A stretch of 52,031 bases of DNA from Acinetobacter phage AM106. The stretch lies in sequence record MH115576.1; one strand, given 5' to 3'. Made by a program: the position numbers and the translations under genes. Shown here in pieces: positions 4,751 through 44,595 of this stretch. How positions within the stretch are numbered: the stretch's first letter is position 1; every line of letters starts with the position of its first letter. The notes beneath the pieces were generated by a model. The model did no database searches, was not told the DNA's origin, and saw only the letters and a program-made list of their open reading frames with translations.

Positions 4751-5138
4751 GTTATCACCAAGACAGTTGGTACTCATTCGACGGGCAGCTGAAGATGCTA
4801 TACATGCTTGCAATAGACATTACGGCCCATTTGTTGACTATGTTGCTCACCCATTAAATATCATTTCATTGGTTGATATGGCGCAAGAAAGCCTACACCA
4901 GCAAGAGCTAATAAAACAAAAGGATACAGTAATAAAATTTGCTAACAGTATGGCGAATTTAGATCAACAGAAGTTCAAGGAATTACAAGAACGGATAAAT
5001 CTTGCCCTGCAACAAATACAAGGCAATTTGCAATATGTTGAGCAGGATAAGAGAGAAAACTTTGAATTTCTGCAAATGGCTATGATTCGAGCATTTAAAG
5101 AATTAGAGAAAGTGCTCAATGGTGGTGAGCCTAAATGA
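4719..5138 (+). CDS. Hypothetical protein
   Basis: 139 aa ORF. Confidence 0.3.
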   Translation: MKERRLMSENKLSPRQLVLIRRAAEDAIHACNRHYGPFVDYVAHPLNIISLVDMAQESLHQQELIKQKDTVIKFANSMANLDQQKFKELQERINLALQQIQGNLQYVEQDKRENFEFLQMAMIRAFKELEKVLNGGEPK

Positions 5139-5542
5139 CATCGATGAGTTTAGCGGATTATCACTCTAAATTTCCAAACGGCCATAAAGCTAAAAAGGGC
5201 CGTAATAAATTTAATGCTTCAAAAGTCACATTAGATGGGATGACTTTCGACAGCAAAAAAGAACTCAAGCGATATATCGAACTTAAAGCCATGCAGCAAC
5301 GCGGTGAAATCTTTGGATTAGAGCACCATGCAAAATTTGAATTGGCTCCTAAAACTAAGATAGAGGGGGAAAAGAGAACAAAGCCGGCACTTAGATATTT
5401 TGCTGATTTTACTTACTACCTCATCAATGGCGAGTACATCGTTGAGGACGTTAAGTCTATTGCTACTAGGAAATTACCTAGTTATCGCAATAAGAAACAT
5501 TTAATGAAAACTGTACACGGTATTGATATTAGAGAGGTTTGA
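5135..5542 (+). CDS. DUF1064-like phage nuclease (putative junction-resolving/Nin-region enzyme)
   Basis: 'KYHSKFPNGHKAKKGRNKFNASKVTLDGMTFDSKKELKRYIELK' matches the DUF1064 pattern as recalled. Confidence 0.4.
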   Translation: MTSMSLADYHSKFPNGHKAKKGRNKFNASKVTLDGMTFDSKKELKRYIELKAMQQRGEIFGLEHHAKFELAPKTKIEGEKRTKPALRYFADFTYYLINGEYIVEDVKSIATRKLPSYRNKKHLMKTVHGIDIREV

Positions 5543-5857: not shown

Positions 5858-6421
5858 ATGACTACAGTTGTAATGGATTGGTCAAGATTTTCTATTTTTG
5901 AATGGTTCGTTTGTGGCTTAAACCCGAAATCACCTTCATTTGGTGCTGCGAACGTTAGATGTACTGATGGGAGGTCAATAGACTTTCATGACAAATTAGG
6001 GGTGGTAGCTGCAATGGGTGATCAACTAACAAAATCAGTTGCAATGGTCATTATGACCGAAGGAAAGTCCCAACGGGATTATGAATATGTTCGCAATCAT
6101 TTAGCTAAAATAATGATTGATGGAGCAGAGAAAGATAAAAGAAGAGAGCCTAAGGGGATAGCTATTTACCACTTAGCTTGGTTAATTGCTCGTATTGTTA
6201 TTGATTTTGCTTTAGATCCCGAATTAGAAAACGCACATAAGGATCCTGGTCGACTTGTTTATGCCGGCATTAGAAGTTTCCAAATGGATCCGGAGGTATA
6301 CCGCAAAACATGGAAACGATACGAAGATATGATGATTGCCGCGCTTAATGAAGAAATTTTAAAAGCTACTGTAATCGCTGAACGCTATAAGAAAGAAACC
6401 TTAAATGAAGCAAGAAATTAG
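5858..6421 (+). CDS. Putative late-gene regulator in the Q position (function inferred from position only)
   Basis: 187 aa; last early gene before a non-coding stretch with an intrinsic terminator and the start of the late/accessory genes. Confidence 0.25.
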   Translation: MTTVVMDWSRFSIFEWFVCGLNPKSPSFGAANVRCTDGRSIDFHDKLGVVAAMGDQLTKSVAMVIMTEGKSQRDYEYVRNHLAKIMIDGAEKDKRREPKGIAIYHLAWLIARIVIDFALDPELENAHKDPGRLVYAGIRSFQMDPEVYRKTWKRYEDMMIAALNEEILKATVIAERYKKETLNEARN

Positions 6422-6540
6422 TTTCCACTTTTGTGCTATTTGAGGTATAGTTTTATTAAATTGGTCGAAGTATAAATTAGACCAAATTGCATTTAAAAGC
6501 TCATCTAAACAGGTGGGCTTTTTTATGGCCTCATTAAAAG

Positions 6541-6571
6541 CTCGGGTCCTTAAGGATACCGAGTTTTTTTA
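6541..6571 (+). terminator. Rho-independent terminator (stem CTCGG..ACCGAG + T7)
   Basis: Hairpin plus T-run read directly. Confidence 0.5.
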
Positions 6572-6601
6572 TTTTTAGTCTTAATTCTAGGAATAAACAG
6601 C

Positions 6602-6832
6602 ATGACTATGACAAACGCTGAATTAGAGAATGAAATCAAAGCTCTAAAAACTCAAATTACATCTCTTCAAGGAACTGTTAGCAATAAAGCTGATGCTACA
6701 GCAGTAAGTGCTTTGAATGCCCGAGTTACTAGTGTGGAAGGTGTAAATACAAGCCAAGGTAATTCAATCACTACTTTGAATAATGGCTTAAATGCAGTTT
6801 CGACACGTGTTACTGCATTAGAAAATAAATAA
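6602..6832 (+). CDS. Small coiled-coil protein paralogous to the repeat unit of the giant tail fibre J ('KADATAVSALNARVTSVEGVNTSQGNSITTLNNGL')
   Basis: 76 aa; the same motif (KADxxALNxLxxRVxxxEGxITSQGNSITxL) recurs 8-9 times in the 30088-40557 protein; own RBS; flanked by two near-identical terminators. Confidence 0.5.
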   Translation: MTMTNAELENEIKALKTQITSLQGTVSNKADATAVSALNARVTSVEGVNTSQGNSITTLNNGLNAVSTRVTALENK

Positions 6833-6839
6833 ATAAAAA

Positions 6840-6871
6840 ACTCGGTCCCAAATGGAGACCGAGTTTTTTTA
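6840..6871 (+). terminator. Rho-independent terminator (stem CTCGGTC..GACCGAG + T7), near-duplicate of the one at 6541
   Basis: Hairpin plus T-run read directly. Confidence 0.6.
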
Positions 6872-7017
6872 TATCGAGTAAAACTGGGGACGAAGTACTG
6901 CGGTAACAGCACTTCGACCTCCTGACAGATGTAGCCTGCCAAAAGCCAAGCCCAGCTATCGTGCACACGATTTGCGAAGGCTATCAAAAATATAAGCTTT
7001 TGCACAGGAAAATTTTT

Positions 7018-7788
7018 ATGAAATCAAAACCAATAATTCCATGGCAAGGTGGTAAAACCCGTTTGGCTAAGGATTTGTTGTGTAAGTTCCCAGAACATTC
7101 ATGTTATGTGGAATTATTTTGTGGTGGAGCAGCATTATTCTTCTTAAGAGAAGGACCAGCAAGAACTGAAGTAATAAATGATCTGAATGGCGAGTTGGTA
7201 AATCTGTACCGGGTAGTGCAGAACCATTTAGAAGAATTTGTGCGTCAATTCAAATGGTGCATTTCAAGTCGCCAGATTTTTGAATGGGAAAAACTAAAAG
7301 TACCAGACACACTAACGGATATTCAGCGAGCTGCAAGATTTTATTACCTTCAGCAACATGCGTTTGGTGGTAAGGTTTCTGGGCAGACATTTGGATATGC
7401 AACAACAGGCCGCTCTTTAAATCTCTTGCGGATAGAGGAAAGTTTAAGTGCAGCACATTTGCGTTTGAATGGAGTCTATATTGAAAACCTGTCCTGGGAT
7501 ATTTGCTTTGATAAGTATGACCGGGAACATACATTTTTTTATGCTGATCCGCCGTATCTAGATACAGCAGGTTATGGAGTAGATTTTCCATTAGATCAGT
7601 ATGAACTTCTTTCTGAAAAGATGAAGACTTGCAAAGGGAAGGTAATGCTATCAATTAATGATCATGAAAAGATTCGTGAAATCTTTAAAGGTTTTAATTT
7701 TGCATGTACTTCAATTAATTATTCTGTTGGTCGTGATTTGGCTGCTAAGAGTAAGAAAAGTAATGAACTGATAATTATGAATTATTGA
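7018..7788 (+). CDS. N6-adenine DNA methyltransferase, Dam/D12 class (orphan)
   Basis: 'FCGGAALFF' AdoMet motif and 'FYADPPYLDTAGYG' DPPY catalytic motif; RBS AGGAAAA upstream of ATG 7018 (ORF track start 6961 is probably an extension). Confidence 0.8.
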   Translation: MKSKPIIPWQGGKTRLAKDLLCKFPEHSCYVELFCGGAALFFLREGPARTEVINDLNGELVNLYRVVQNHLEEFVRQFKWCISSRQIFEWEKLKVPDTLTDIQRAARFYYLQQHAFGGKVSGQTFGYATTGRSLNLLRIEESLSAAHLRLNGVYIENLSWDICFDKYDREHTFFYADPPYLDTAGYGVDFPLDQYELLSEKMKTCKGKVMLSINDHEKIREIFKGFNFACTSINYSVGRDLAAKSKKSNELIIMNY

Positions 7789-7836
7789 TCTCATAATTTG
7801 GTTTAAAAGTTTGCCGTAATAATTGCGGCGCAAACG

Positions 7837-7877
7837 GCCCCTCTAAAAAATGGTTATTGGAGGGGCTTTTTCTTTTT
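7837..7877 (+). terminator. Rho-independent terminator after the methyltransferase (stem GCCCCTC..GAGGGGC + T-run)
   Basis: Hairpin plus TTTTTCTTTTT read directly. Confidence 0.55.
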
Positions 7878-7889
7878 GGAGAAATAAAA

Positions 7890-8093
7890 GTGCGTATGAG
7901 CCGATTATTACTAGCCACAACTGCTGGATTAATGGCCTTAAATACAAAACTAAGTGTTTTAAGCGCCTTGGTTGCATCATGTGGACACGCATCACCTTTG
8001 AGCTGTAAGGCAAATACAGTAAAGAGTAAACCTAACAAACTAAGTCAAAAGAAAAAACGCCTTATTGCTCGTCGTCTTAATAAACATAAGTGA
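7890..8093 (+). CDS. Small, highly basic putative lipoprotein (lipobox VASC; mature about 37 aa ending 'KKKRLIARRLNKHK')
   Basis: GTG 7890 with RBS GGAG at 7878; hydrophobic signal 'LLLATTAGLMAL...LSALVASC'. Confidence 0.4.
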   Translation: MRMSRLLLATTAGLMALNTKLSVLSALVASCGHASPLSCKANTVKSKPNKLSQKKKRLIARRLNKHK

Positions 8094-8102
8094 GCTGGAT
8101 AA

Positions 8103-8276
8103 ATGGACAAAAACGAAGCTAAAAAAAATCTGGATAAATATTCACAGGAACTTGAGCGTTATCAAAATCTCTCCAGATCGGGTCTTAGCCGTGATGAAAT
8201 GTTAGTTATCGATAGAATAATTCTTAGATTAAAAAAGCAAGTTAATAATTTACGGACGGCCTTATATGGACAGTAA
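8103..8276 (+). CDS. Small coiled-coil protein (57 aa); not in ORF track
   Basis: ATG 8103; stop overlaps the start of the next gene (coupling). Confidence 0.3.
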   Translation: MDKNEAKKNLDKYSQELERYQNLSRSGLSRDEMLVIDRIILRLKKQVNNLRTALYGQ

Positions 8277-8733
8277 CGATTATTTTTGGCTTACAAGAAA
8301 AAAAGAACCAAGAACAAAACCAAAAAGCCGCCCATTACCCAAAGCAACTCAAAAATACCTAGAAGCTGAAGAAGAATTTACTCATGCATTAGATGTGCTT
8401 GAAATCAAATATGAAAAGAAATTTAAGTTTAAATCTACAAAACATTGGCGATTTGATTTTCATTTAATTGAACATCGTATTCTGGTCGAAATTGCGGGTG
8501 GTCCATGGTCAGGTGGTCGAAAAGGTAAGCTCAAAGATAAAGCTTGGAGTATGGATCGATACGATGATGCTGAAGCAATGGGATATACGGTTGTTCGGTT
8601 AGAGGCAGCACCAAGTTTTAAAATTAATGAATCTGGCCCGTTACAGATACAAGCTCATTTTGCTAGTCAGTGGCTTAAAAACTTAAAGAGGCAAATATTT
8701 AATGGATCAGATCAGACCGTTTCCACCAACTGA
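8266..8733 (+). CDS. DUF559/Vsr-like PD-(D/E)xK-fold (restriction endonuclease-like) protein
   Basis: 'RFDFHLIEHRILVEIAGGPW...DRYDDAEAMGYTVVRLE' parallels the DUF559 pattern (hhDF...hhIE.DG..H...D..R...L...Gh.VhR). Confidence 0.45.
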   Translation: MDSNDYFWLTRKKEPRTKPKSRPLPKATQKYLEAEEEFTHALDVLEIKYEKKFKFKSTKHWRFDFHLIEHRILVEIAGGPWSGGRKGKLKDKAWSMDRYDDAEAMGYTVVRLEAAPSFKINESGPLQIQAHFASQWLKNLKRQIFNGSDQTVSTN

Positions 8734-9343
8734 TTTTATTGATCAAGCTGAAGAAGAGGAAGCAATTCGTTTAATACCGGCTCCAGACCTAAAAAAATGG
8801 GTTGTGGCTAATTACTTAACGATTGGTGGGCCTCTTTATAATCCAGATCATGATCATATTGCTGAGTTACTTCATGATAATGAAGAGTTCTTGGCATTTG
8901 CTTGGGCCTCTTCTGCATATAAAAGCAAGCAGGCGATGGTGCTGGGGCAGTGTGAAAAAGTAATGTTTAACGTCGGTGGCTGGCGTAAAGCTAGACAAGA
9001 GCAACAGATGCGTGACTGGTTCGGTTTTGTGCCAACATACTTAATAACTGTCGACGCTTCTTTCTGTGAGCGTGCAAACGATACAGAGTTCTGTTATTTG
9101 CTTGAACATGAGCTTTACCACATTGGAGTGATGAGAGACGAGGACGGAGAAATTGTTTATAGCGATAGTTCTGGTCTGCCTAAGCACTATCTTGCTGGTC
9201 ATGACGTTGAAGAGTTTATTGGCGTAGTTAAACGGTGGGGACCAAGTAAGAATGTTAAGCGACTTATTGAGGTCGCAAAAAATCCGCCGTTTGTTTCTGA
9301 TTTAGATATTGCGAGATGCTGCGGGAACTGTGTAATCAATTGA
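8702..9343 (+). CDS. Putative zinc metallopeptidase-like protein (HExxH 'HELYH') with C-terminal Cys cluster (CCGNC)
   Basis: HExxH motif at 'LLEHELYHIGV'; start overlaps the previous gene by 32 nt. Confidence 0.4.
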   Translation: MDQIRPFPPTDFIDQAEEEEAIRLIPAPDLKKWVVANYLTIGGPLYNPDHDHIAELLHDNEEFLAFAWASSAYKSKQAMVLGQCEKVMFNVGGWRKARQEQQMRDWFGFVPTYLITVDASFCERANDTEFCYLLEHELYHIGVMRDEDGEIVYSDSSGLPKHYLAGHDVEEFIGVVKRWGPSKNVKRLIEVAKNPPFVSDLDIARCCGNCVIN

Positions 9344-9364
9344 GCCTTATGGCTCTTTTTTTTG
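9342..9364 (+). terminator. Rho-independent terminator (GAGCC..GGCTC + T8)
   Basis: Read directly. Confidence 0.5.
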
Positions 9365-9401
9365 TCCTGTTTGCTGTACGTAGCTGTACGAAGGGGAATT
9401 T

Positions 9402-9872
9402 ATGGCAGCACTAAAAGAGCCTGTGAAAATATTTATTGTTCAAGCTCTTGCATGCCGTGATACCCCTCAAGAAGTGGTTGAACAGGTCAAGCAAGAGTTT
9501 GGAGTTGATATTAGTCGTAGCCAATGCGAATGCTATGACCCAACAAAATATTCGGGCAGAAACTTAAGCAAGAAGTTTGTTGAGCTTTTTGAATTAACCA
9601 GAGAGAAGTTTGATAAAGGCTTAATTGATATTCCTATTGCTAATAAGTACTACCGACTGAAGCAATACCAAAGACAGCTTGAGAAGACTAGAAACGTCAA
9701 AACAGCCTTAAAAATTCTTGAGCAAGCCGCTAAAGACATTGGTGGTCAATTTACTAATCGTCAAGAAATTACAGGCAAAGACGGCGGACCAGTTCAAACA
9801 GTTAATTCTGAAATTCCAGTTCCAATGGAAGATTACTTAAAAGCGCGGAGGGAAGTCTTAGATGAGTACTGA
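9402..9872 (+). CDS. Terminase small subunit
   Basis: 156 aa gene immediately upstream of, and overlapping, the large terminase; basic/helical. Confidence 0.5.
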   Translation: MAALKEPVKIFIVQALACRDTPQEVVEQVKQEFGVDISRSQCECYDPTKYSGRNLSKKFVELFELTREKFDKGLIDIPIANKYYRLKQYQRQLEKTRNVKTALKILEQAAKDIGGQFTNRQEITGKDGGPVQTVNSEIPVPMEDYLKARREVLDEY

Positions 9873-11289
9873 TGCGGCTCGGGATAAAGCCATCCAGATC
9901 GAGGCGCAAGAAGATTTATATTTCTTTACAAGGTACATGTTTAAGGAGCGCCGAGGCTACAAATGGATGCAAAATTGGCACCACTTAGAAATCTGCGAAG
10001 CATTAATGAAAGTTTATCGCGGTGAGACTAAGCGGTTAATTATTAACGTACCACCTCGATATTCAAAAACTGAAATTGCTGTAATTAATTTTATGGCTTG
10101 GTGTTTTGGAAAGAAACCTGACTGTGAGTTTATTCATATCAGTTACTCGGCAATGCTTGCCGCAAATAATGCATTTCAGACTCGTAATATGGTTCAAGAA
10201 AAGGCTTATAAAAAGGTCTTTCCTGATCTTAAATTACGTGAGGATAGTAAAGCTAAGGATTTCTGGCGCACAGATGCAGGCGGAGTCTGCTATGCGACTG
10301 GTACTGGCGGTACCATTACAGGTTTTGGTGCAGGCAAAATGCGTGAAGGCTTTGGTGGTTGCATCATCATTGATGACCCGCATAAGGCCGATGAAGCCAA
10401 ATCAAAAACTATCCGTGAAGGTGTAATTGACTGGTTCCAAAATACTCTCGAGTCTCGTACTAACTCACCAGAAACGCCAATTATTGTCATTATGCAGCGT
10501 CTTCATGAAGATGATTTGGCTGGATGGCTGCTAGGTGATAGAAAAGACGGCGTTCCTGTAGCTGGTGGTAACGGTGAAGTGTGGGAGCATCTATGTCTTT
10601 CGGCTATTCAAGAAGACGGATCTGCATTGTGGCCAGCAAAACACAATATTCAAAAGTTGAAGCAAATGGAGCAAGCTGCGCCGTATGTTTTTGCCGGGCA
10701 ATATCGTCAAATGCCATCACCGCCAGCAGGTGGTTTTTTTAAGCCTGACAATATTGAAATTGTGGATGCTTTACCTGCTGATGTAGTGAAGCAAGTAAGG
10801 GCTTGGGACTTTGGTGCTACTGAGAATGAAGGCGACTTTACAGCAGGTGTTAGAGAAGCTCTTGGCGCAGATGGTTTTACTTACATTGTCGATGTTACAA
10901 GAGGACAGCTTGGTCCAGACAATGTTAATAAGCGCTTAAAACAAGTCACAGAGTTAGATGGGATGGGCGTAACGGTAAGGATTCCTCAAGATCCTGGTCA
11001 AGCTGGTAAATCACAAGCTAGTGCATTCGTAAAACTTCTTGCAGGATATGACGTCAAAGCCAAACCAGTTTCGGGAGACAAACTCACACGTGCACAACCT
11101 TTTGCGGCGCAAGTTAACGTGGGTAACGTGAGAATGCTTAGAGGTGATTGGAATAAAGACTTTATTGAAGAGCTTCGCAATTTTCCAAATGGAACGCATG
11201 ACGACCAAGTTGATGCTGGTTCAGATGCATTTAATGAATTGAATGGAGGTTTTGAGGCCTTCTTTGCTGATATGGGATTTGCTCGATGA
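9862..11289 (+). CDS. Terminase large subunit (Terminase_6-like)
   Basis: 'IINVPPRYSKTE' ATPase P-loop-like motif, 'IIIDDPHK' Walker B-like, C-terminal nuclease region; 475 aa. Confidence 0.85.
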   Translation: MSTDAARDKAIQIEAQEDLYFFTRYMFKERRGYKWMQNWHHLEICEALMKVYRGETKRLIINVPPRYSKTEIAVINFMAWCFGKKPDCEFIHISYSAMLAANNAFQTRNMVQEKAYKKVFPDLKLREDSKAKDFWRTDAGGVCYATGTGGTITGFGAGKMREGFGGCIIIDDPHKADEAKSKTIREGVIDWFQNTLESRTNSPETPIIVIMQRLHEDDLAGWLLGDRKDGVPVAGGNGEVWEHLCLSAIQEDGSALWPAKHNIQKLKQMEQAAPYVFAGQYRQMPSPPAGGFFKPDNIEIVDALPADVVKQVRAWDFGATENEGDFTAGVREALGADGFTYIVDVTRGQLGPDNVNKRLKQVTELDGMGVTVRIPQDPGQAGKSQASAFVKLLAGYDVKAKPVSGDKLTRAQPFAAQVNVGNVRMLRGDWNKDFIEELRNFPNGTHDDQVDAGSDAFNELNGGFEAFFADMGFAR

Positions 11290-41674: not shown

Positions 41675-41968
41675 ATGAACGATCAGACAAATAGTGTAGT
41701 TGGAGCAGCTGCAAGCACGGCTGCCGCGACTGCAACAAAATTCACTTATGGTTATGTAGTGGGAGGGAGCTTGATCGGTGTTATTGGCAAAATTGATTGG
41801 GCTGTAGTCTTTTCGATTTTAATCGGTATCGCAACCTTTCTGACGAATCTCTATTTCAAAAAAAGAGATGATAAGCGTAAGGATGAGATTCACGAGCTAC
41901 AAACGAAGCAATATGAGCTAACTAAGAAACGATTGGAAGGGGGTTCAGATGACAAGCGAACAGACTAG
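41675..41968 (+). CDS. Putative holin (two TMDs, charged C-terminus)
   Basis: ATG 41675 with RBS GGAGG; 'GYVVGGSLIGVIG' and 'WAVVFSILIGIATFLTNLYF' helices then 'KKRDDKRKDE'. Confidence 0.45.
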   Translation: MNDQTNSVVGAAASTAAATATKFTYGYVVGGSLIGVIGKIDWAVVFSILIGIATFLTNLYFKKRDDKRKDEIHELQTKQYELTKKRLEGGSDDKRTD

Positions 41969-42173
41969 AGCTTATCTGGCTTTTGCACTTGTGGCGTTAA
42001 TGTTCGTACTGGTTATTGCTTTATTTTTTGTGAATATGCCACGTGAGAACAGCAATTTAATTAATACAGCATTGGGTTTCATTGCGGGGGCAATGACAAC
42101 TGCCTGTGGATTCTATTTCGGAAGCTCTGACCAGGAAAAGAAAAATAAAACTGAGGAATCAACTGAGCAGTAA
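41949..42173 (+). CDS. Second small 2-TMD membrane protein (holin/antiholin partner)
   Basis: 'LAFALVALMFVLVIALFFV' and 'ALGFIAGAMTTACGFYFG' helices; overlaps previous gene. Confidence 0.4.
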   Translation: MTSEQTRAYLAFALVALMFVLVIALFFVNMPRENSNLINTALGFIAGAMTTACGFYFGSSDQEKKNKTEESTEQ

Positions 42174-42775: not shown

Positions 42776-42913
42776 ATGAAAATCTTTCACAGTAAGCGAA
42801 CTAAGTTTGCTTCGATTATTACTGTGCTGTGTATTCTATTATCGGGCTGCACAGCCCATACGATCAAAAATAATATTAGAGTCAGCATTTGCGTACAGTG
42901 TGTTGTTAATTGA
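42776..42913 (+). CDS. Small putative lipoprotein (45 aa, lipobox LLSGC), o-spanin-like by position
   Basis: ATG 42776 two nt after endolysin stop; 'MKIFHSKRTKFASIITVLCILLSGC' signal; mature part 20 aa with 2 more Cys. Confidence 0.3.
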   Translation: MKIFHSKRTKFASIITVLCILLSGCTAHTIKNNIRVSICVQCVVN

Positions 42914-43207: not shown

Positions 43208-43402
43208 ATGTCTTCACAGTTAATCAAAATTCATTATCATGCATATTCTCGCGTTGCAGATCTATTAGCAGATCTAGATAAGAAAGGAGAGGTCACTAAA
43301 ATTTATGACCTCAATGGCAACGAATTAAAAATTAATTTCTTGCGTGACGAAGTTTATTATAAAAAAGTCTGGTGGCATTTTCAGAAGAAGCAAGGCGGTT
43401 AA
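43208..43402 (+). CDS. Hypothetical protein (moron between lysis cassette and integrase)
   Basis: 64 aa ORF preceded by AT-rich region with palindromic repeats. Confidence 0.3.
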   Translation: MSSQLIKIHYHAYSRVADLLADLDKKGEVTKIYDLNGNELKINFLRDEVYYKKVWWHFQKKQGG

Positions 43403-44595
43403 ACCGCCCAGCTATCCACAATATTAGCCCAGTCCTGTAGCATTTTTCGCCTGCTTTCTAAATATTTGGCATGGTTATATGTGGCCCTAGTTTTATTACC
43501 ATCTGCATGCGCTAATTGTTTTTCAATCCATTTGTCATCGTAATCCTTTTCATTTAACAAGGTTGATGCAGTGGCACGAAAGTCATGAGCAGTGACATCA
43601 GACAAGCCAATGTAATCGAGCATTTTATTCATTGTAGTAGCGGAGAGCATCCCATCTTGATAGATGGCTGGAAAAACATATTCACGATTACCTACAATGT
43701 TGCGCTGTTCTTGAAGAATATTAAAAACTTGGTCAGACATAGGAACGATATGAATACGTTTCTTTTTCATCATCTCTTTTGGGAATGTAATTGTTCTAGC
43801 TTCAAAATCAACATATTCCCATTTCATGCGGCGGATCTCGATAGTCCTGAGCATAGAGTAGAGCATTACAAGGCCAGCATTTTTAACTGTAGTAGATCCA
43901 CCATAGCTATTTAATTTATTTCTAAGTTGCACAGCCTCATATTTTTCCATGGGTCTGGCATGTTCTATTTCGGGACGTTCTACAACGTTTTTAACGGCAT
44001 AGGTTGGATCATAGTCGGCTCTAAGTGTGGCGATTGCATAACGCATTACGCCGCCAATAAAAGTACGATTTTGAATTGCTGACACTTCGCCAGTACCATG
44101 GTTTTTTTGACGCTTAACTCGTGCAATCGTCTTTTTCATGATAGTCAAAACGTCTGCTGAGGTGACTTCTTTAATATCCTTATCACCAATAACTTTTAAA
44201 ATATCTTTATCTAAGGCGCGTTGAAAAGCTTCTTGATACCTTTCTGAACGATTATTTAATTTTTCTGCTTTATATTCTGCAGCAACATGTTTAAAGAGAA
44301 CCCTATTGTCATACTCATTAGATTTAGCCTTTTTTTGGTTTTCTTTTTCTTCAACTGGATTTATACCGCTTGCAACTAAAGATTTAGCTTCATCTCTTTT
44401 AGTACGGGCTTCAGCTAATCCCACAATAGGGTATTCACCTAAGCTCATCATTTGTGTTTTTTTGAGCCATTGAAAACGATAGCGCCAATACTTCTTGCCA
44501 TTAGGTTTTATTTCAACACACAAACCATCGGAATCACCAAGCCTATAAAGCTTTTCTTTCGGTTTTGCACTTCTAATTTTTGAGTCACTTAACAT
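43399..44595 (-). CDS. int: Tyrosine integrase, P4-like (N-terminal DUF4102 arm-binding domain)
   Basis: 'MLSDSKIRSAKPKEKLYRLGDSDGLCVEIKPNGKKYWRYRF' P4-type N-terminus; catalytic 'HDFRATAST' and 'RATYNHAKY' (R-H-R-Y). Confidence 0.9.
   Translation of the reverse strand: MLSDSKIRSAKPKEKLYRLGDSDGLCVEIKPNGKKYWRYRFQWLKKTQMMSLGEYPIVGLAEARTKRDEAKSLVASGINPVEEKENQKKAKSNEYDNRVLFKHVAAEYKAEKLNNRSERYQEAFQRALDKDILKVIGDKDIKEVTSADVLTIMKKTIARVKRQKNHGTGEVSAIQNRTFIGGVMRYAIATLRADYDPTYAVKNVVERPEIEHARPMEKYEAVQLRNKLNSYGGSTTVKNAGLVMLYSMLRTIEIRRMKWEYVDFEARTITFPKEMMKKKRIHIVPMSDQVFNILQEQRNIVGNREYVFPAIYQDGMLSATTMNKMLDYIGLSDVTAHDFRATASTLLNEKDYDDKWIEKQLAHADGNKTRATYNHAKYLESRRKMLQDWANIVDSWAV

What the first reader, a model, noticed from the sequence alone, without database searches (positions are those of the whole stretch)
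7890..9364. Terminator-delimited four-gene cassette: basic lipoprotein + 57-aa coiled-coil + DUF559/Vsr-like nuclease-fold protein + HExxH metallopeptidase-like protein
Four overlapping, translationally coupled genes sit between strong terminators at 7837-7877 and 9342-9364. They occupy the slot between the Q-position gene and the terminase, where lambdoid phages usually carry lysis genes or morons. Here the lysis genes are at the far end of the late operon, so this slot holds cargo. Pairing a PD-(D/E)xK-fold (DUF559-like) protein with a Zn-metallopeptidase-like protein (HELYH plus a CCGNC cluster), a tiny very basic lipoprotein and a small coiled-coil protein does not match any defence or anti-defence system I can name. 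It could be a compact phage-borne defence or superinfection module, or an anti-restriction module.
Basis: partly seen in the sequence, partly recalled or inferred. Interest (0 to 1): 0.8.

Follow-up and report, generated by a model that had tools for sequence, protein, structure and literature searches.

The report
Terminase-linked metallopeptidase gene plus variable cargo
The four genes are real but are not one defence cassette: the last one, a zinc-metallopeptidase-like gene, is a fixed companion of this phage family's small terminase gene, while the other three are optional passengers at the start of the late operon.

Summary
The window is an Acinetobacter baumannii temperate siphophage, 100% identical here to phi1_092021 and Acba_3. 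All four ORFs and both hairpins exist. They do not form a conserved unit.

g4 (8702-9343; Pfam PF18894; zincin fold) sits directly upstream of a DUF2280 small-terminase gene in about 235 of 236 loci from Acinetobacter, Pseudomonas-like phages and alpha/beta/gamma-proteobacterial prophages. In the reverse test, 73 of 73 terS-anchored loci carry it. It is a core late gene of unknown function, not cargo.

g3 (8266-8733) has a Vsr/DUF559 fold. It has lost the family's conserved His and Asp, yet is under purifying selection. It occurs only in Acinetobacter phages and not in all of them.

g1 and g2 are sporadic (2 and 8 of 80 loci) in a hypervariable slot. The g1 lipobox cysteine is glycine in a 95%-identical allele.

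No defence-family match was found, and no sigma-70-like promoter was found after the upstream terminator. Sister phage SA1 has a Q antiterminator upstream, so late expression by read-through is inferred.

In passing I noticed two co-varying direct repeats before terS that track the TerS DNA-binding domain class.

Verdict: ordinary late-region architecture with one uncharacterised, tightly terminase-linked enzyme. Interest is modest.

The parts
7836..7878 (+). Intrinsic-terminator-like hairpin (11-bp stem 7836-7867) with a U-tract. It forms the left boundary of the variable slot.
   Evidence: -20.9 kcal/mol, z -2.69, 0 of 200 shuffles fold as well; the SA1 allele reads GGCCCCGC...GCGGGGC against GGCCCCTC...GAGGGGC here, a compensatory double change; a strong hairpin plus T-run lies 0.08-1.1 kb upstream of g3 in 42 of 61 loci.
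7890..8093 (+). g1: a 65-67 aa small basic protein with an N-terminal hydrophobic signal-like segment and lipobox LVAS|C. The mature part has 12 K/R and no acidic residue. Sporadic accessory gene.
   Evidence: phrog_23724, unknown function; found in only 11 near-identical phage records; 2 of 80 loci; the lipobox Cys is Gly in the L016 and SA1 alleles, with 3 nonsynonymous against 2 synonymous changes.
8103..8276 (+). g2: a 57-aa helical, coiled-coil-like protein. Sporadic accessory gene that also occurs next to other genes.
   Evidence: phrog_3194; 21 phage records and 8 of 80 loci; adjacent to g3 in 4 of those and 1-2.4 kb upstream in the other 4; in Acba_16 it overlaps the start of a DUF968 gene; in L294 it lies directly upstream of g4 with no g3.
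8266..8733 (+). g3: a 155-aa protein with a Vsr/DUF559-type PD-(D/E)xK fold, a basic N-terminal tail and a degenerate active site (D64 and E75 kept; E77 to A, H86 to K, D95 to S). Specific to the Acinetobacter phage lineage.
   Evidence: 836 representative clusters; 26 of 50 relatives hit PF04480; profile hits to 3r3p and 3hrl at E about 1e-4; pLDDT 77.6, alpha-beta-beta-beta-alpha-beta core; 3r3p at 7e-4, Vsr at 3e-3; residue losses across the whole clade; dN/dS 0.105; distribution.
8702..9343 (+). g4: a 213-aa PF18894 'PhageMetallopep' protein with a minimal zincin core. It has HELYH at 136-140, a conserved GHDVEEF at 166-172, Cys122/131/207/210 and NPDHxH at 47-52. It is the constant upstream partner of DUF2280 terS.
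9342..9363 (+). Conserved short hairpin (GAGCC-N4-GGCTC, which includes the g4 stop codon) followed by T8, lying between g4 and terS.
   Evidence: -8.9 kcal/mol, z -2.9; the stem is invariant and the loop is free in about 40 distinct Acinetobacter intergenic variants.
9373..9390 (+). Two direct repeats GCTGTACG with a 10-bp period, 12 nt upstream of the terS start. Candidate TerS recognition or operator site.
   Evidence: these are the only two copies in the window; the two copies co-vary across at least 10 variants, and the variant tracks the TerS N-domain class (AMI 0.93; g4 0.37; g3 0.11); an analogous TGAC(A/G)G pair with an 11-bp period occurs in Pseudomonas and alpha-proteobacterial loci.
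9402..9872 (+). DUF2280 protein, identified as the small terminase subunit by its position. Its N-terminal domain (1-100) is conserved and its C-terminal part changes with the TerL type.
   Evidence: PF10045 at 6e-39; modular N and C conservation; annotated as terminase small subunit in Burkholderia phage records.
9862..11289 (+). Large terminase subunit, overlapping the end of terS.
   Evidence: Terminase_6C at 2.5e-16 and phrog_38 at 5e-120.

Best explanation
The region is the leader of the phage late operon. It is a composite of three kinds of gene, not one system.

(1) g4 is a Zn-dependent zincin-fold hydrolase, most likely a metallopeptidase. By homology with gluzincins, H136 and H140 plus a Glu of the GHDVEEF helix would bind the metal, E137 would act as general base, and four conserved Cys would form a probable second, structural metal site. 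It belongs to the packaging-proximal core of phages that use a DUF2280-type small terminase. It is made late, together with TerS and TerL, and acts on a protein substrate connected with the onset of DNA packaging or virion maturation. The most plausible substrates are TerS itself or proteins bound to the DNA about to be packaged.

(2) g3 is an Acinetobacter-lineage add-on. It is a paralogue of a canonical phage DUF559 nuclease that kept the fold, the metal-binding Asp and a basic tail, but lost the general-base His and a second Asp. It most likely acts as a DNA-binding pseudo-nuclease or an altered nuclease. It is translationally coupled to g4.

(3) g1 and g2 are moron-like passengers in a hypervariable slot between a tR'-like terminator and g3.

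Shown: gene reality, folds, residue conservation and loss, synteny statistics, mosaic boundaries, purifying selection.

Inferred: catalytic activity, substrate, the packaging role, and late expression.
For: Synteny, g4-anchored. g4 is followed by DUF2280 terS within 60 nt or less in 79 of 79 Acinetobacter loci and 77 of 77 Pseudomonas-like viral loci. In alpha/beta/gamma-proteobacterial genome loci the first count was 77 of 80. Two of the three exceptions were ORF-calling artefacts and one is a frameshifted g4.

Synteny, terS-anchored. 73 of 73 loci found through terS have g4 immediately upstream.

GenBank phages. Per-genus counts of g4 and terS are equal: Acinetobacter 61/61, Pseudomonas 44/44, Vibrio 8/8, Burkholderia 7/7. 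Annotated examples are JBD44 gp16-gp17, ENT47670, RHph_N28_2 and XM1.

Conserved island. g4 stays at 78% amino-acid identity or more while g3 (41-100%) and terS (41-100%) on either side swap alleles, and at least three TerL types occur downstream.

Selection. dN/dS is 0.058 with dS 0.76, and there is no island of synonymous constraint, so the conservation is at the protein level.

Fold and motifs..

g3. Fold. Active-site mapping onto I-Bth0305I and Vsr residues from PMC3239194 and the alignments. An intact DUF559 paralogue lies 2-4 kb upstream in 34 sister loci. dN/dS is 0.105.

g1 and g2. Sporadic, in a hypervariable slot.

Late-operon context. No promoter-like site follows the 7836 terminator. 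SA1 has a Pfam Q antiterminator upstream of the same terminator.
Against: - No experiment or paper assigns any function to PF18894. No solved structure is detectable by sequence.
- 181 Salinibacter phage records carry DUF2280 without g4, so TerS of this type can work without it.
- Within Acinetobacter, g4 does not co-vary with the TerS allele. This argues against a tight allele-specific g4-TerS contact.
- A distant homologue in Bordetella phage PHB04 sits 2.8 kb from TerL and is not next to a DUF2280 gene.
- Model confidence is moderate, and the C-terminal CxxC tail is modelled poorly.
- Late expression is inferred from hairpins and from a sister phage, not measured.
Confidence: 0.5

Rival explanations
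1. One reading: the four genes form one compact phage-borne defence or superinfection-exclusion module expressed from the prophage.
For: The cassette is bounded by hairpins. It pairs a nuclease-fold protein with a metallopeptidase-fold protein. It includes a small membrane-targeted basic protein. It lies in a region where related phages carry diverse cargo.
Against: - The four genes co-occur only in near-identical relatives.
- g4 is universal next to terS in more than 230 loci, and g3 is absent outside Acinetobacter.
- PADLOC and NCBIfam gave no hits.
- No promoter-like site lies between the terminator and g1.
- The g3 active site is degenerate.
- The g1 lipobox Cys is not conserved.
Confidence: 0.06
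2. g4, alone or with g3, is an anti-defence or host-takeover enzyme. It would be a late-made protease, possibly packaged into the capsid and injected, that destroys a conserved proteobacterial host factor. This would be analogous to the metalloprotease domain of the anti-restriction protein ArdC. Its place next to terS would reflect only co-expression with head genes.
For: - Protein conservation is extreme and independent of the flanking TerS and g3 alleles. That fits a conserved host target better than a phage partner.
- g4 is absent from Salinibacter DUF2280 phages, which fits host-lineage specificity.
- g3 could supply DNA binding.
Against: - Anti-defence genes are normally patchy, whereas g4 is present in every proteobacterial DUF2280 locus examined, at a fixed distance from terS.
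- No homology to any known anti-defence protein was found.
- No virion proteomics data were found.
Confidence: 0.2
3. g3 is a free-standing homing endonuclease (EDxHD/Vsr-like, as I-Bth0305I) that has invaded the terminase region, and g4 is unrelated to it.
For: The best structural and profile match is the I-Bth0305I catalytic domain. PHROG gives weak hits to homing and HNH endonuclease families. The terminase region is a known landing site: an HNH_3+NUMOD4 gene sits between g4 and terS in Burkholderia phage vB_PL1. g3 alleles are discrete and mosaic.
Against: The His general base and the Asp equivalent to Vsr D97 are replaced in every g3-clade member. There is no NUMOD or other specificity domain. 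g3 is present in most rather than few related phages (74 of 80 loci). dN/dS is 0.105. g3 overlaps g4 by a constant 32 nt.
Confidence: 0.07
4. g1, with or without g2, is a stand-alone moron encoding an envelope protein. It could act in superinfection exclusion or serum resistance in the manner of lambda Bor or T5 Llp, or be a stray spanin component.
For: g1 has a signal-like N-terminus and a lipobox in this allele. Its distribution is sporadic and it lies in a hypervariable slot right after a terminator.
Against: The lipobox Cys is Gly in the SA1 and L016 alleles, and there are 3 nonsynonymous against 2 synonymous changes, which gives no sign of purifying selection. No own promoter was detected. 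g2 has no transmembrane segment, so the pair does not look like an i-/o-spanin pair. A separate small lipoprotein ORF follows the endolysin at 42776-42913.
Confidence: 0.15

Closest known systems
Pfam PF18894 'Putative phage metallopeptidase' (PHROG 513), e.g. Pseudomonas phage JBD44 gp16, Cronobacter phage ENT47670 'putative transposase', Burkholderia phage vB_E192a metallopeptidase
   Same: g4 is a full-length member (121.6 bits against a 23.7-bit cutoff). It has the same length, the same invariant residues and the same position directly upstream of DUF2280 terS.
   Different: Nothing material. The family itself has no assigned function, and 'transposase' in some records appears to be a legacy mis-annotation. 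In Acinetobacter phages a Vsr-like gene precedes it with an overlap, which is not seen elsewhere.
Minimal zincins: minigluzincins (projannalysin 4jix, selecase 4qhf, proabylysin 4jiu) and the DNA-dependent proteases Spartan SprT (6mdx) and Wss1 (5xbn)
Vsr / DUF559 (PF04480) / EDxHD homing endonuclease I-Bth0305I (PDB 3r3p; PMC3239194)
   Same: g3 has the alpha-beta-beta-beta-alpha-beta core and the metal-binding Asp (D64, equivalent to Vsr D51). Its relatives are DUF559 members.
   Different: g3 itself does not reach PF04480. The positions equivalent to the family's His (H86), to Vsr D97 (D95) and mostly to Vsr H64 / I-Bth N208 (E77) are replaced in the whole g3 clade. It has no NUMOD/HTH specificity domain.
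HNH endonuclease-terminase modules of HK97-like cos phages (gp74-gp1-gp2; background from my own knowledge and PMC3592412, PMC9410871)
   Same: A small metal-dependent enzyme gene is fixed immediately upstream of terS-terL across many phages.
   Different: g4 is a zincin, not a beta-beta-alpha-Me HNH. This phage group appears to package by headful: PhageTerm found no termini in the 98%-identical SA1 (PMC11536755), and the head genes are SPP1-like. No nuclease activity is implied by HExxH.
Lambdoid late-region architecture: Q, tR'-type terminators, morons such as lambda bor
   Same: There is a series of intrinsic terminators followed by late genes. A Q antiterminator lies upstream in sister phage SA1. 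A variable cargo slot sits just after the terminator.
   Different: The lysis genes are at the far end of the late operon. The gene at 5858-6421 in this window matches no Q family.

Membership tests
Pfam PF18894 PhageMetallopep (g4) | Profile score above the curated gathering threshold over the full domain | tested here: met
   121.6 bits against a 23.7-bit cutoff, E = 3e-35, residues 32-192 on profile positions 2-133 of 134.
Pfam PF18894 PhageMetallopep (g4) | HExxH zinc-binding motif on a zincin-fold active-site helix | tested here: met
Pfam PF18894 PhageMetallopep (g4) | Metal-dependent peptidase activity | not testable with these tools
   No biochemical data were found for any member.
DUF559 / Vsr-like endonucleases (g3) | Match to the PF04480 profile | tested here: not met
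   g3 gives no Pfam hit at E of 0.1 or below. However, 26 of 50 of its detectable relatives and the sister-phage paralogue (29.6 bits against a 20.6-bit cutoff) do match.
DUF559 / Vsr-like endonucleases (g3) | Vsr-type PD-(D/E)xK fold | tested here: met
   AF2 core alpha-beta-beta-beta-alpha-beta at pLDDT 77.6. Foldseek hits to 3r3p at 7e-4 and 1vsr at 3e-3. Profile hits to 3r3p and 3hrl at about 1e-4.
DUF559 / Vsr-like endonucleases (g3) | Complete catalytic set (equivalents of Vsr D51, H64, H69 and D97; the EDxHD motif of I-Bth0305I) | tested here: not met
   D64 and E75 are kept. E77 is A (in most of the clade), H86 is K or G, and D95 is S or N in all 63 distinct g3-clade sequences. Residue roles are taken from PMC3239194.
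Bacterial lipoprotein (g1) | Signal peptide ending in a lipobox with an invariant Cys at +1 | tested here: inconclusive
   LVAS|C is present in the window, but the Cys is Gly in the SA1 and L016 alleles. No dedicated signal-peptide predictor was available.
Known anti-phage defence systems (all four genes) | Homology of at least one component to a catalogued defence protein | tested here: not met
   PADLOC-DB gave no hit at E of 0.1 or below for g1-g4. NCBIfam also gave none.
Multi-gene system (the four genes as one unit) | Conserved co-occurrence and synteny of the components across divergent genomes | tested here: not met
   g1 is in 2 of 80 loci and g2 in 8 of 80. g3 is in 74 of 80 Acinetobacter loci but 0 of 160 others. 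g4 is in all.
Terminase-associated nuclease (HK97 gp74-type HNH) | HNH beta-beta-alpha-Me motif, cos-type packaging, gene adjacent to terS | tested here: not met
   Adjacency is met. There is no HNH motif or fold. The SA1 relative shows no defined termini.
Intrinsic terminators (7836-7878 and 9342-9363) | GC-rich stem-loop followed by a U-tract, conserved as a structure | tested here: met
   The stem of the second hairpin is conserved with a variable loop. The first shows a compensatory change. Termination itself was not measured.
Moron (g1, g2) | Variable presence among close relatives, plus an own promoter and terminator | tested here: inconclusive
   Variable presence is met. No promoter-like site was found between the terminator and g1.

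The most novel reading that the evidence does not exclude
PF18894 is a previously unrecognised third component, or regulator, of DUF2280-type terminases in Proteobacteria. It would be a zinc protease that processes TerS or strips DNA-bound proteins at the packaging start. The two co-varying direct repeats just upstream of terS would be the TerS recognition (pac or operator) site. In Acinetobacter phages the pseudo-nuclease g3 would serve as a DNA-binding adaptor for it.
Probability: 0.25. Interest if true: 0.6.

Novelty: new member of a known kind. Interest (0 to 1): 0.3.

Why it matters
The practical value is corrective. The cassette should not be put forward as a new defence system.

The residual interest lies in g4. 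An uncharacterised zincin family (thousands of homologues, no structure, no function, often mislabelled 'transposase') is locked to one family of small terminases across alpha-, beta- and gammaproteobacterial temperate phages. These include therapeutic-candidate A. baumannii and P. aeruginosa phages. If it proves necessary for packaging, it would add a new kind of accessory enzyme to phage DNA-packaging machines and a handle for disabling prophage induction.

The co-varying repeats before terS offer a ready test of how DUF2280 TerS recognises its DNA.

Tried and rejected
- Sequence searches of PDB with g3, g4 and the g4 family profile gave nothing significant for g4.
- Literature searches for PF18894, PhageMetallopep, DUF2280, phrog_513, phrog_503, phrog_546 and COG4900 found only genome descriptions that call it an accessory gene.
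- The AFDB50 fold library was unavailable. The BFVD search returned only the same family.
- I considered that the genome ends of vB_AbaS_Gln, SA1 and Eva at window 9367/9368 marked a cos site next to g4. The SA1 paper states that PhageTerm found no termini and that the start was set arbitrarily, so I rejected this.
- I considered a pac site or other cis element inside g4 as the reason for its conservation. Synonymous divergence is high and shows no constrained island apart from the g3 overlap, so I rejected this.
- I looked for domain fusions of g4. The long ORFs were artefacts of longest-ORF calling in GC-rich DNA.
- I looked for a conserved upstream partner of g4 outside Acinetobacter and found none: 117 clusters in 155 loci.
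- The HNH gene next to g4 in vB_PL1 is a NUMOD4 homing endonuclease, not a partner.
- An iterative profile search did not enlarge the g2 family.
- The gene upstream of DUF2280 in Salinibacter phages is a membrane protein, not a divergent g4.
Full report
**What the window is.** The stretch 7700-9500 is 100% identical to Acinetobacter phages phi1_092021, Acba_3, Acba_14 and others. It is about 98% identical to vB_AbaS_SA1, Gln and Eva of the genus Vieuvirus. These are temperate A. baumannii siphophages. The window carries an integrase at 43399-44595, SPP1-like head genes, and a holin plus GH108 endolysin at 41.6-42.8 kb.

**The observation.** The four ORFs are real and are called as CDS in public records.
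- g1: 7896-8093, or from GTG 7890, which has a GGAG 8 nt upstream.
- g2: 8103-8276.
- g3: 8266-8733.
- g4: 8702-9343.

g2/g3 overlap by 11 nt and g3/g4 by 32 nt. g1 and g2 are separated by 9 nt.

Both hairpins exist. The first is an 11-bp stem at 7836-7867 with a U-tract (-20.9 kcal/mol, z -2.7). The second is a 5-bp stem at 9342-9355 with T8 (-8.9 kcal/mol). Both behave as conserved structures. The SA1 allele of the first carries a compensatory T>G/A>C change. The stem of the second is invariant while its loop varies freely in about 40 distinct Acinetobacter variants.

Downstream lie a DUF2280 protein (9402-9872, PF10045, E = 6e-39) and the large terminase (9862-11289).

**g4.**
- It is a full-length member of PF18894 'putative phage metallopeptidase' (E = 3e-35).
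- In an alignment of 95 sequences from Acinetobacter, Enterobacterales and Burkholderia, the invariant residues include H50, H52, C131, H136, E137, H140, H167, D168, E170, C207 and C210. C122 and E171 are nearly invariant.
- This establishes the fold, not the substrate.
- No solved structure or functional study of the family was found.

**The decisive evidence is genomic context.**
- Anchoring on g4 relatives, a DUF2280 terS gene follows on the same strand within 60 nt or less in 79 of 79 Acinetobacter viral loci and 77 of 77 Pseudomonas-like viral loci.
- In genome loci from Rhizobiales, Sphingomonadales, Burkholderiales, Pseudomonas, Serratia and others, the first count was 77 of 80. Two of the three exceptions were ORF-calling artefacts and one is a frameshifted g4.
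- Anchoring instead on terS, 73 of 73 loci with enough upstream sequence have g4 immediately upstream.
- Among GenBank phages the per-genus counts of g4 and terS hits are equal: Acinetobacter 61/61, Pseudomonas 44/44, Vibrio 8/8, Burkholderia 7/7 and so on.
- Annotated examples are JBD44 gp16-gp17-gp18, ENT47670, RHph_N28_2 and XM1.
- The one clear exception is a set of 181 Salinibacter phage records with DUF2280 but no g4.

Within Acinetobacter, g4 is a conserved island. It stays at 78% identity or more while g3 (41-100%) and terS (41-100%) swap alleles on either side. At least three TerL types occur downstream. dN/dS is 0.058 at dS 0.76, with no island of synonymous constraint, so it is the protein that is conserved. 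g4 is therefore a core late gene tied to the packaging module, not cargo.

**g3.**
- It has no Pfam hit of its own. An exhaustive phmmer search found 836 representative clusters.
- Of 50 aligned relatives, 26 are PF04480 DUF559.
- The family profile hits the I-Bth0305I catalytic domain (3r3p) and a DUF559 structure (3hrl) at about 1e-4.
- The AF2 model (pLDDT 77.6) has the alpha-beta-beta-beta-alpha-beta core. It matches 3r3p, Bax1 and Vsr by Foldseek.

The active site, however, is degenerate. Using the residue roles given for I-Bth0305I and Vsr (PMC3239194), g3 keeps the metal-binding Asp (D64) and E75. Every one of 63 distinct g3-clade sequences has replaced the family's conserved His (H86 to K or G) and the Asp equivalent to Vsr D97 (D95 to S or N). 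Most have E77 to A.

In 34 sister loci an intact DUF559 paralogue of about 134 aa lies 2-4 kb upstream. The window instead has a DUF1064/phrog_190 resolvase-type gene there.

g3 is under purifying selection (dN/dS 0.105). It is found directly upstream of g4 in 74 of 80 g4-anchored and 50 of 73 terS-anchored Acinetobacter-type loci, and in 0 of 160 loci from other genera. Outside Acinetobacter the gene upstream of g4 is unrelated from locus to locus: 117 clusters in 155 loci.

**g1 and g2.**
- g1 occurs in 11 near-identical phage records and 2 of 80 IMG/VR loci.
- g2 occurs in 21 records and 8 of 80 loci. It is adjacent to g3 in only four of these, coupled to a DUF968 gene elsewhere, and once directly upstream of g4 without g3.
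- The slot upstream of g3 holds 22 unrelated gene clusters in 64 loci. It is usually preceded by a strong hairpin at a variable distance.
- The g1 lipobox Cys is Gly in two independent 95%-identical alleles (SA1 and L016), with 3 nonsynonymous against 2 synonymous differences. The lipoprotein reading, and even selection on g1, are therefore uncertain.
- A separate small lipobox ORF follows the endolysin at 42776-42913, so g1 is not needed to complete the lysis set.

**Expression context.** No sigma-70-like site lies between the 7836 terminator and g1, and promoter-like matches in the region are fewer than in shuffles. In SA1 the same terminator is preceded by a small gene, another terminator and a Pfam Q antiterminator. 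The window's 5858-6421 gene matches no Q family. The simplest reading is that g1-g4 and the terminase genes are transcribed late by read-through. This is inferred, not measured. PADLOC and NCBIfam give no hits for any of the four.

**Interpretation.** The region is a composite.
- A variable moron slot holds g1 and g2.
- g3 is a lineage-specific, probably non-catalytic Vsr-fold protein.
- g4 is a core zincin that is the fixed companion of DUF2280 terS.

I commit to g4 being a Zn metallopeptidase acting late on a packaging-related protein substrate: TerS itself, or proteins on the DNA to be packaged. I put the confidence at about 0.5 for the whole statement. It is much higher for the architecture and lower for the mechanism.

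The main rival for g4 is a late-made anti-defence or host-directed protease (0.2). That reading fits its independence from the TerS allele and its absence from Salinibacter phages. It does not fit its universality and fixed position.

The HK97-type HNH-terminase analogy fails on fold and on packaging mode. PhageTerm found no termini in SA1.

**Seen in passing.** Between the 9342 hairpin and the terS start lie two direct repeats, GCTGTACG at 9373-9380 and 9383-9390. These are the only copies in the window. Across Acinetobacter loci the two copies change together (GTTATAC, GCTAGAC, GGTTGAC, CCTTGAC, GCTTTAC and others). The variant tracks the TerS N-terminal domain class (adjusted mutual information 0.93, against 0.37 for g4 and 0.11 for g3). 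A similar TGAC(A/G)G pair with an 11-bp period precedes terS in JBD44-like and alpha-proteobacterial loci. Physical linkage contributes to the correlation. The concerted change of both copies nevertheless points to a dimeric or tandem DNA-binding protein, most simply TerS.

**Verdict.** The four-gene defence-cassette interpretation is not supported as a unit. What remains is an ordinary late-operon leader with one uncharacterised, tightly terminase-linked enzyme family that deserves a direct genetic test.

Noticed in passing
window 9373-9390 (also L003 4620-4645 and many loci L007-L246): Two direct repeats with a 10-11 bp period lie immediately upstream of terS. The two copies co-vary, and the variant tracks the TerS N-terminal (DUF2280) domain class (AMI 0.93). 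A related TGAC(A/G)G pair occurs in Pseudomonas and alpha-proteobacterial loci. This is a candidate pac or operator site for TerS.
   Followed up: partly
L008-L084, 2-4 kb upstream of g4 (e.g. L012 1841-2248); the window equivalent is 5135-5542: 34 sister Acinetobacter loci carry an intact DUF559 nuclease (about 134 aa, all catalytic residues present) in the nin-like region. It is the apparent parent of the degenerate g3 clade. The window has a DUF1064/phrog_190 'Holliday junction resolvase' gene in that place instead, which looks like a non-orthologous replacement.
   Followed up: partly
window 7980-7982 (g1 Cys codon); L251 1495-1698; L016 4228-4431: The lipobox cysteine of g1 (TGT) is glycine (GGT) in the 95%-identical alleles of vB_AbaS_SA1 and an IMG/VR contig.
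   Followed up: yes
window 9402-9872 compared with L013, L021, L052 etc.: TerS is modular. The DUF2280 N-terminal domain of about 98 aa stays recognisable at 41-65% identity. The C-terminal part and the downstream TerL belong to at least three unrelated types.
   Followed up: partly
window 42776-42913: A 45-aa ORF starts right after the endolysin stop. It has a canonical signal and lipobox (LLSG|C) and is a possible small spanin-like lipoprotein. A second two-TM protein at 41949-42173 follows the holin.
   Followed up: no
window 6495-6880: A 76-aa coiled-coil gene (6602-6832) has PHROG hits to tail-fibre-like repeats. It is framed by a terminator at 6500-6517 and a strong bidirectional terminator at 6835-6869 (-20.2 kcal/mol, z -6.4). 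A Dam-type methylase (about 7018-7788) follows. These look like further morons between the nin region and the late genes.
   Followed up: no
L004 4588-5139 (Burkholderia phage vB_PL1): An HNH_3 + NUMOD4 homing-endonuclease gene is inserted between the g4 homologue and the genome end/terS. This shows that the g4-terS junction is a landing site for selfish nucleases.
   Followed up: partly
L248 (Salinibacter phage 4_2) 2932-3980, and 181 related records: Salinibacter phages encode DUF2280 terS without any PF18894 gene. A multi-pass membrane protein lies upstream instead.
   Followed up: partly
L294 2145-2327 and L257 1668-1883: In some loci a g2-like protein, or another small coiled-coil protein, sits directly upstream of g4 with no g3. 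The C-terminal 'KLIARLN' tail of the L013/L257 protein resembles the basic tail of g1.
   Followed up: no
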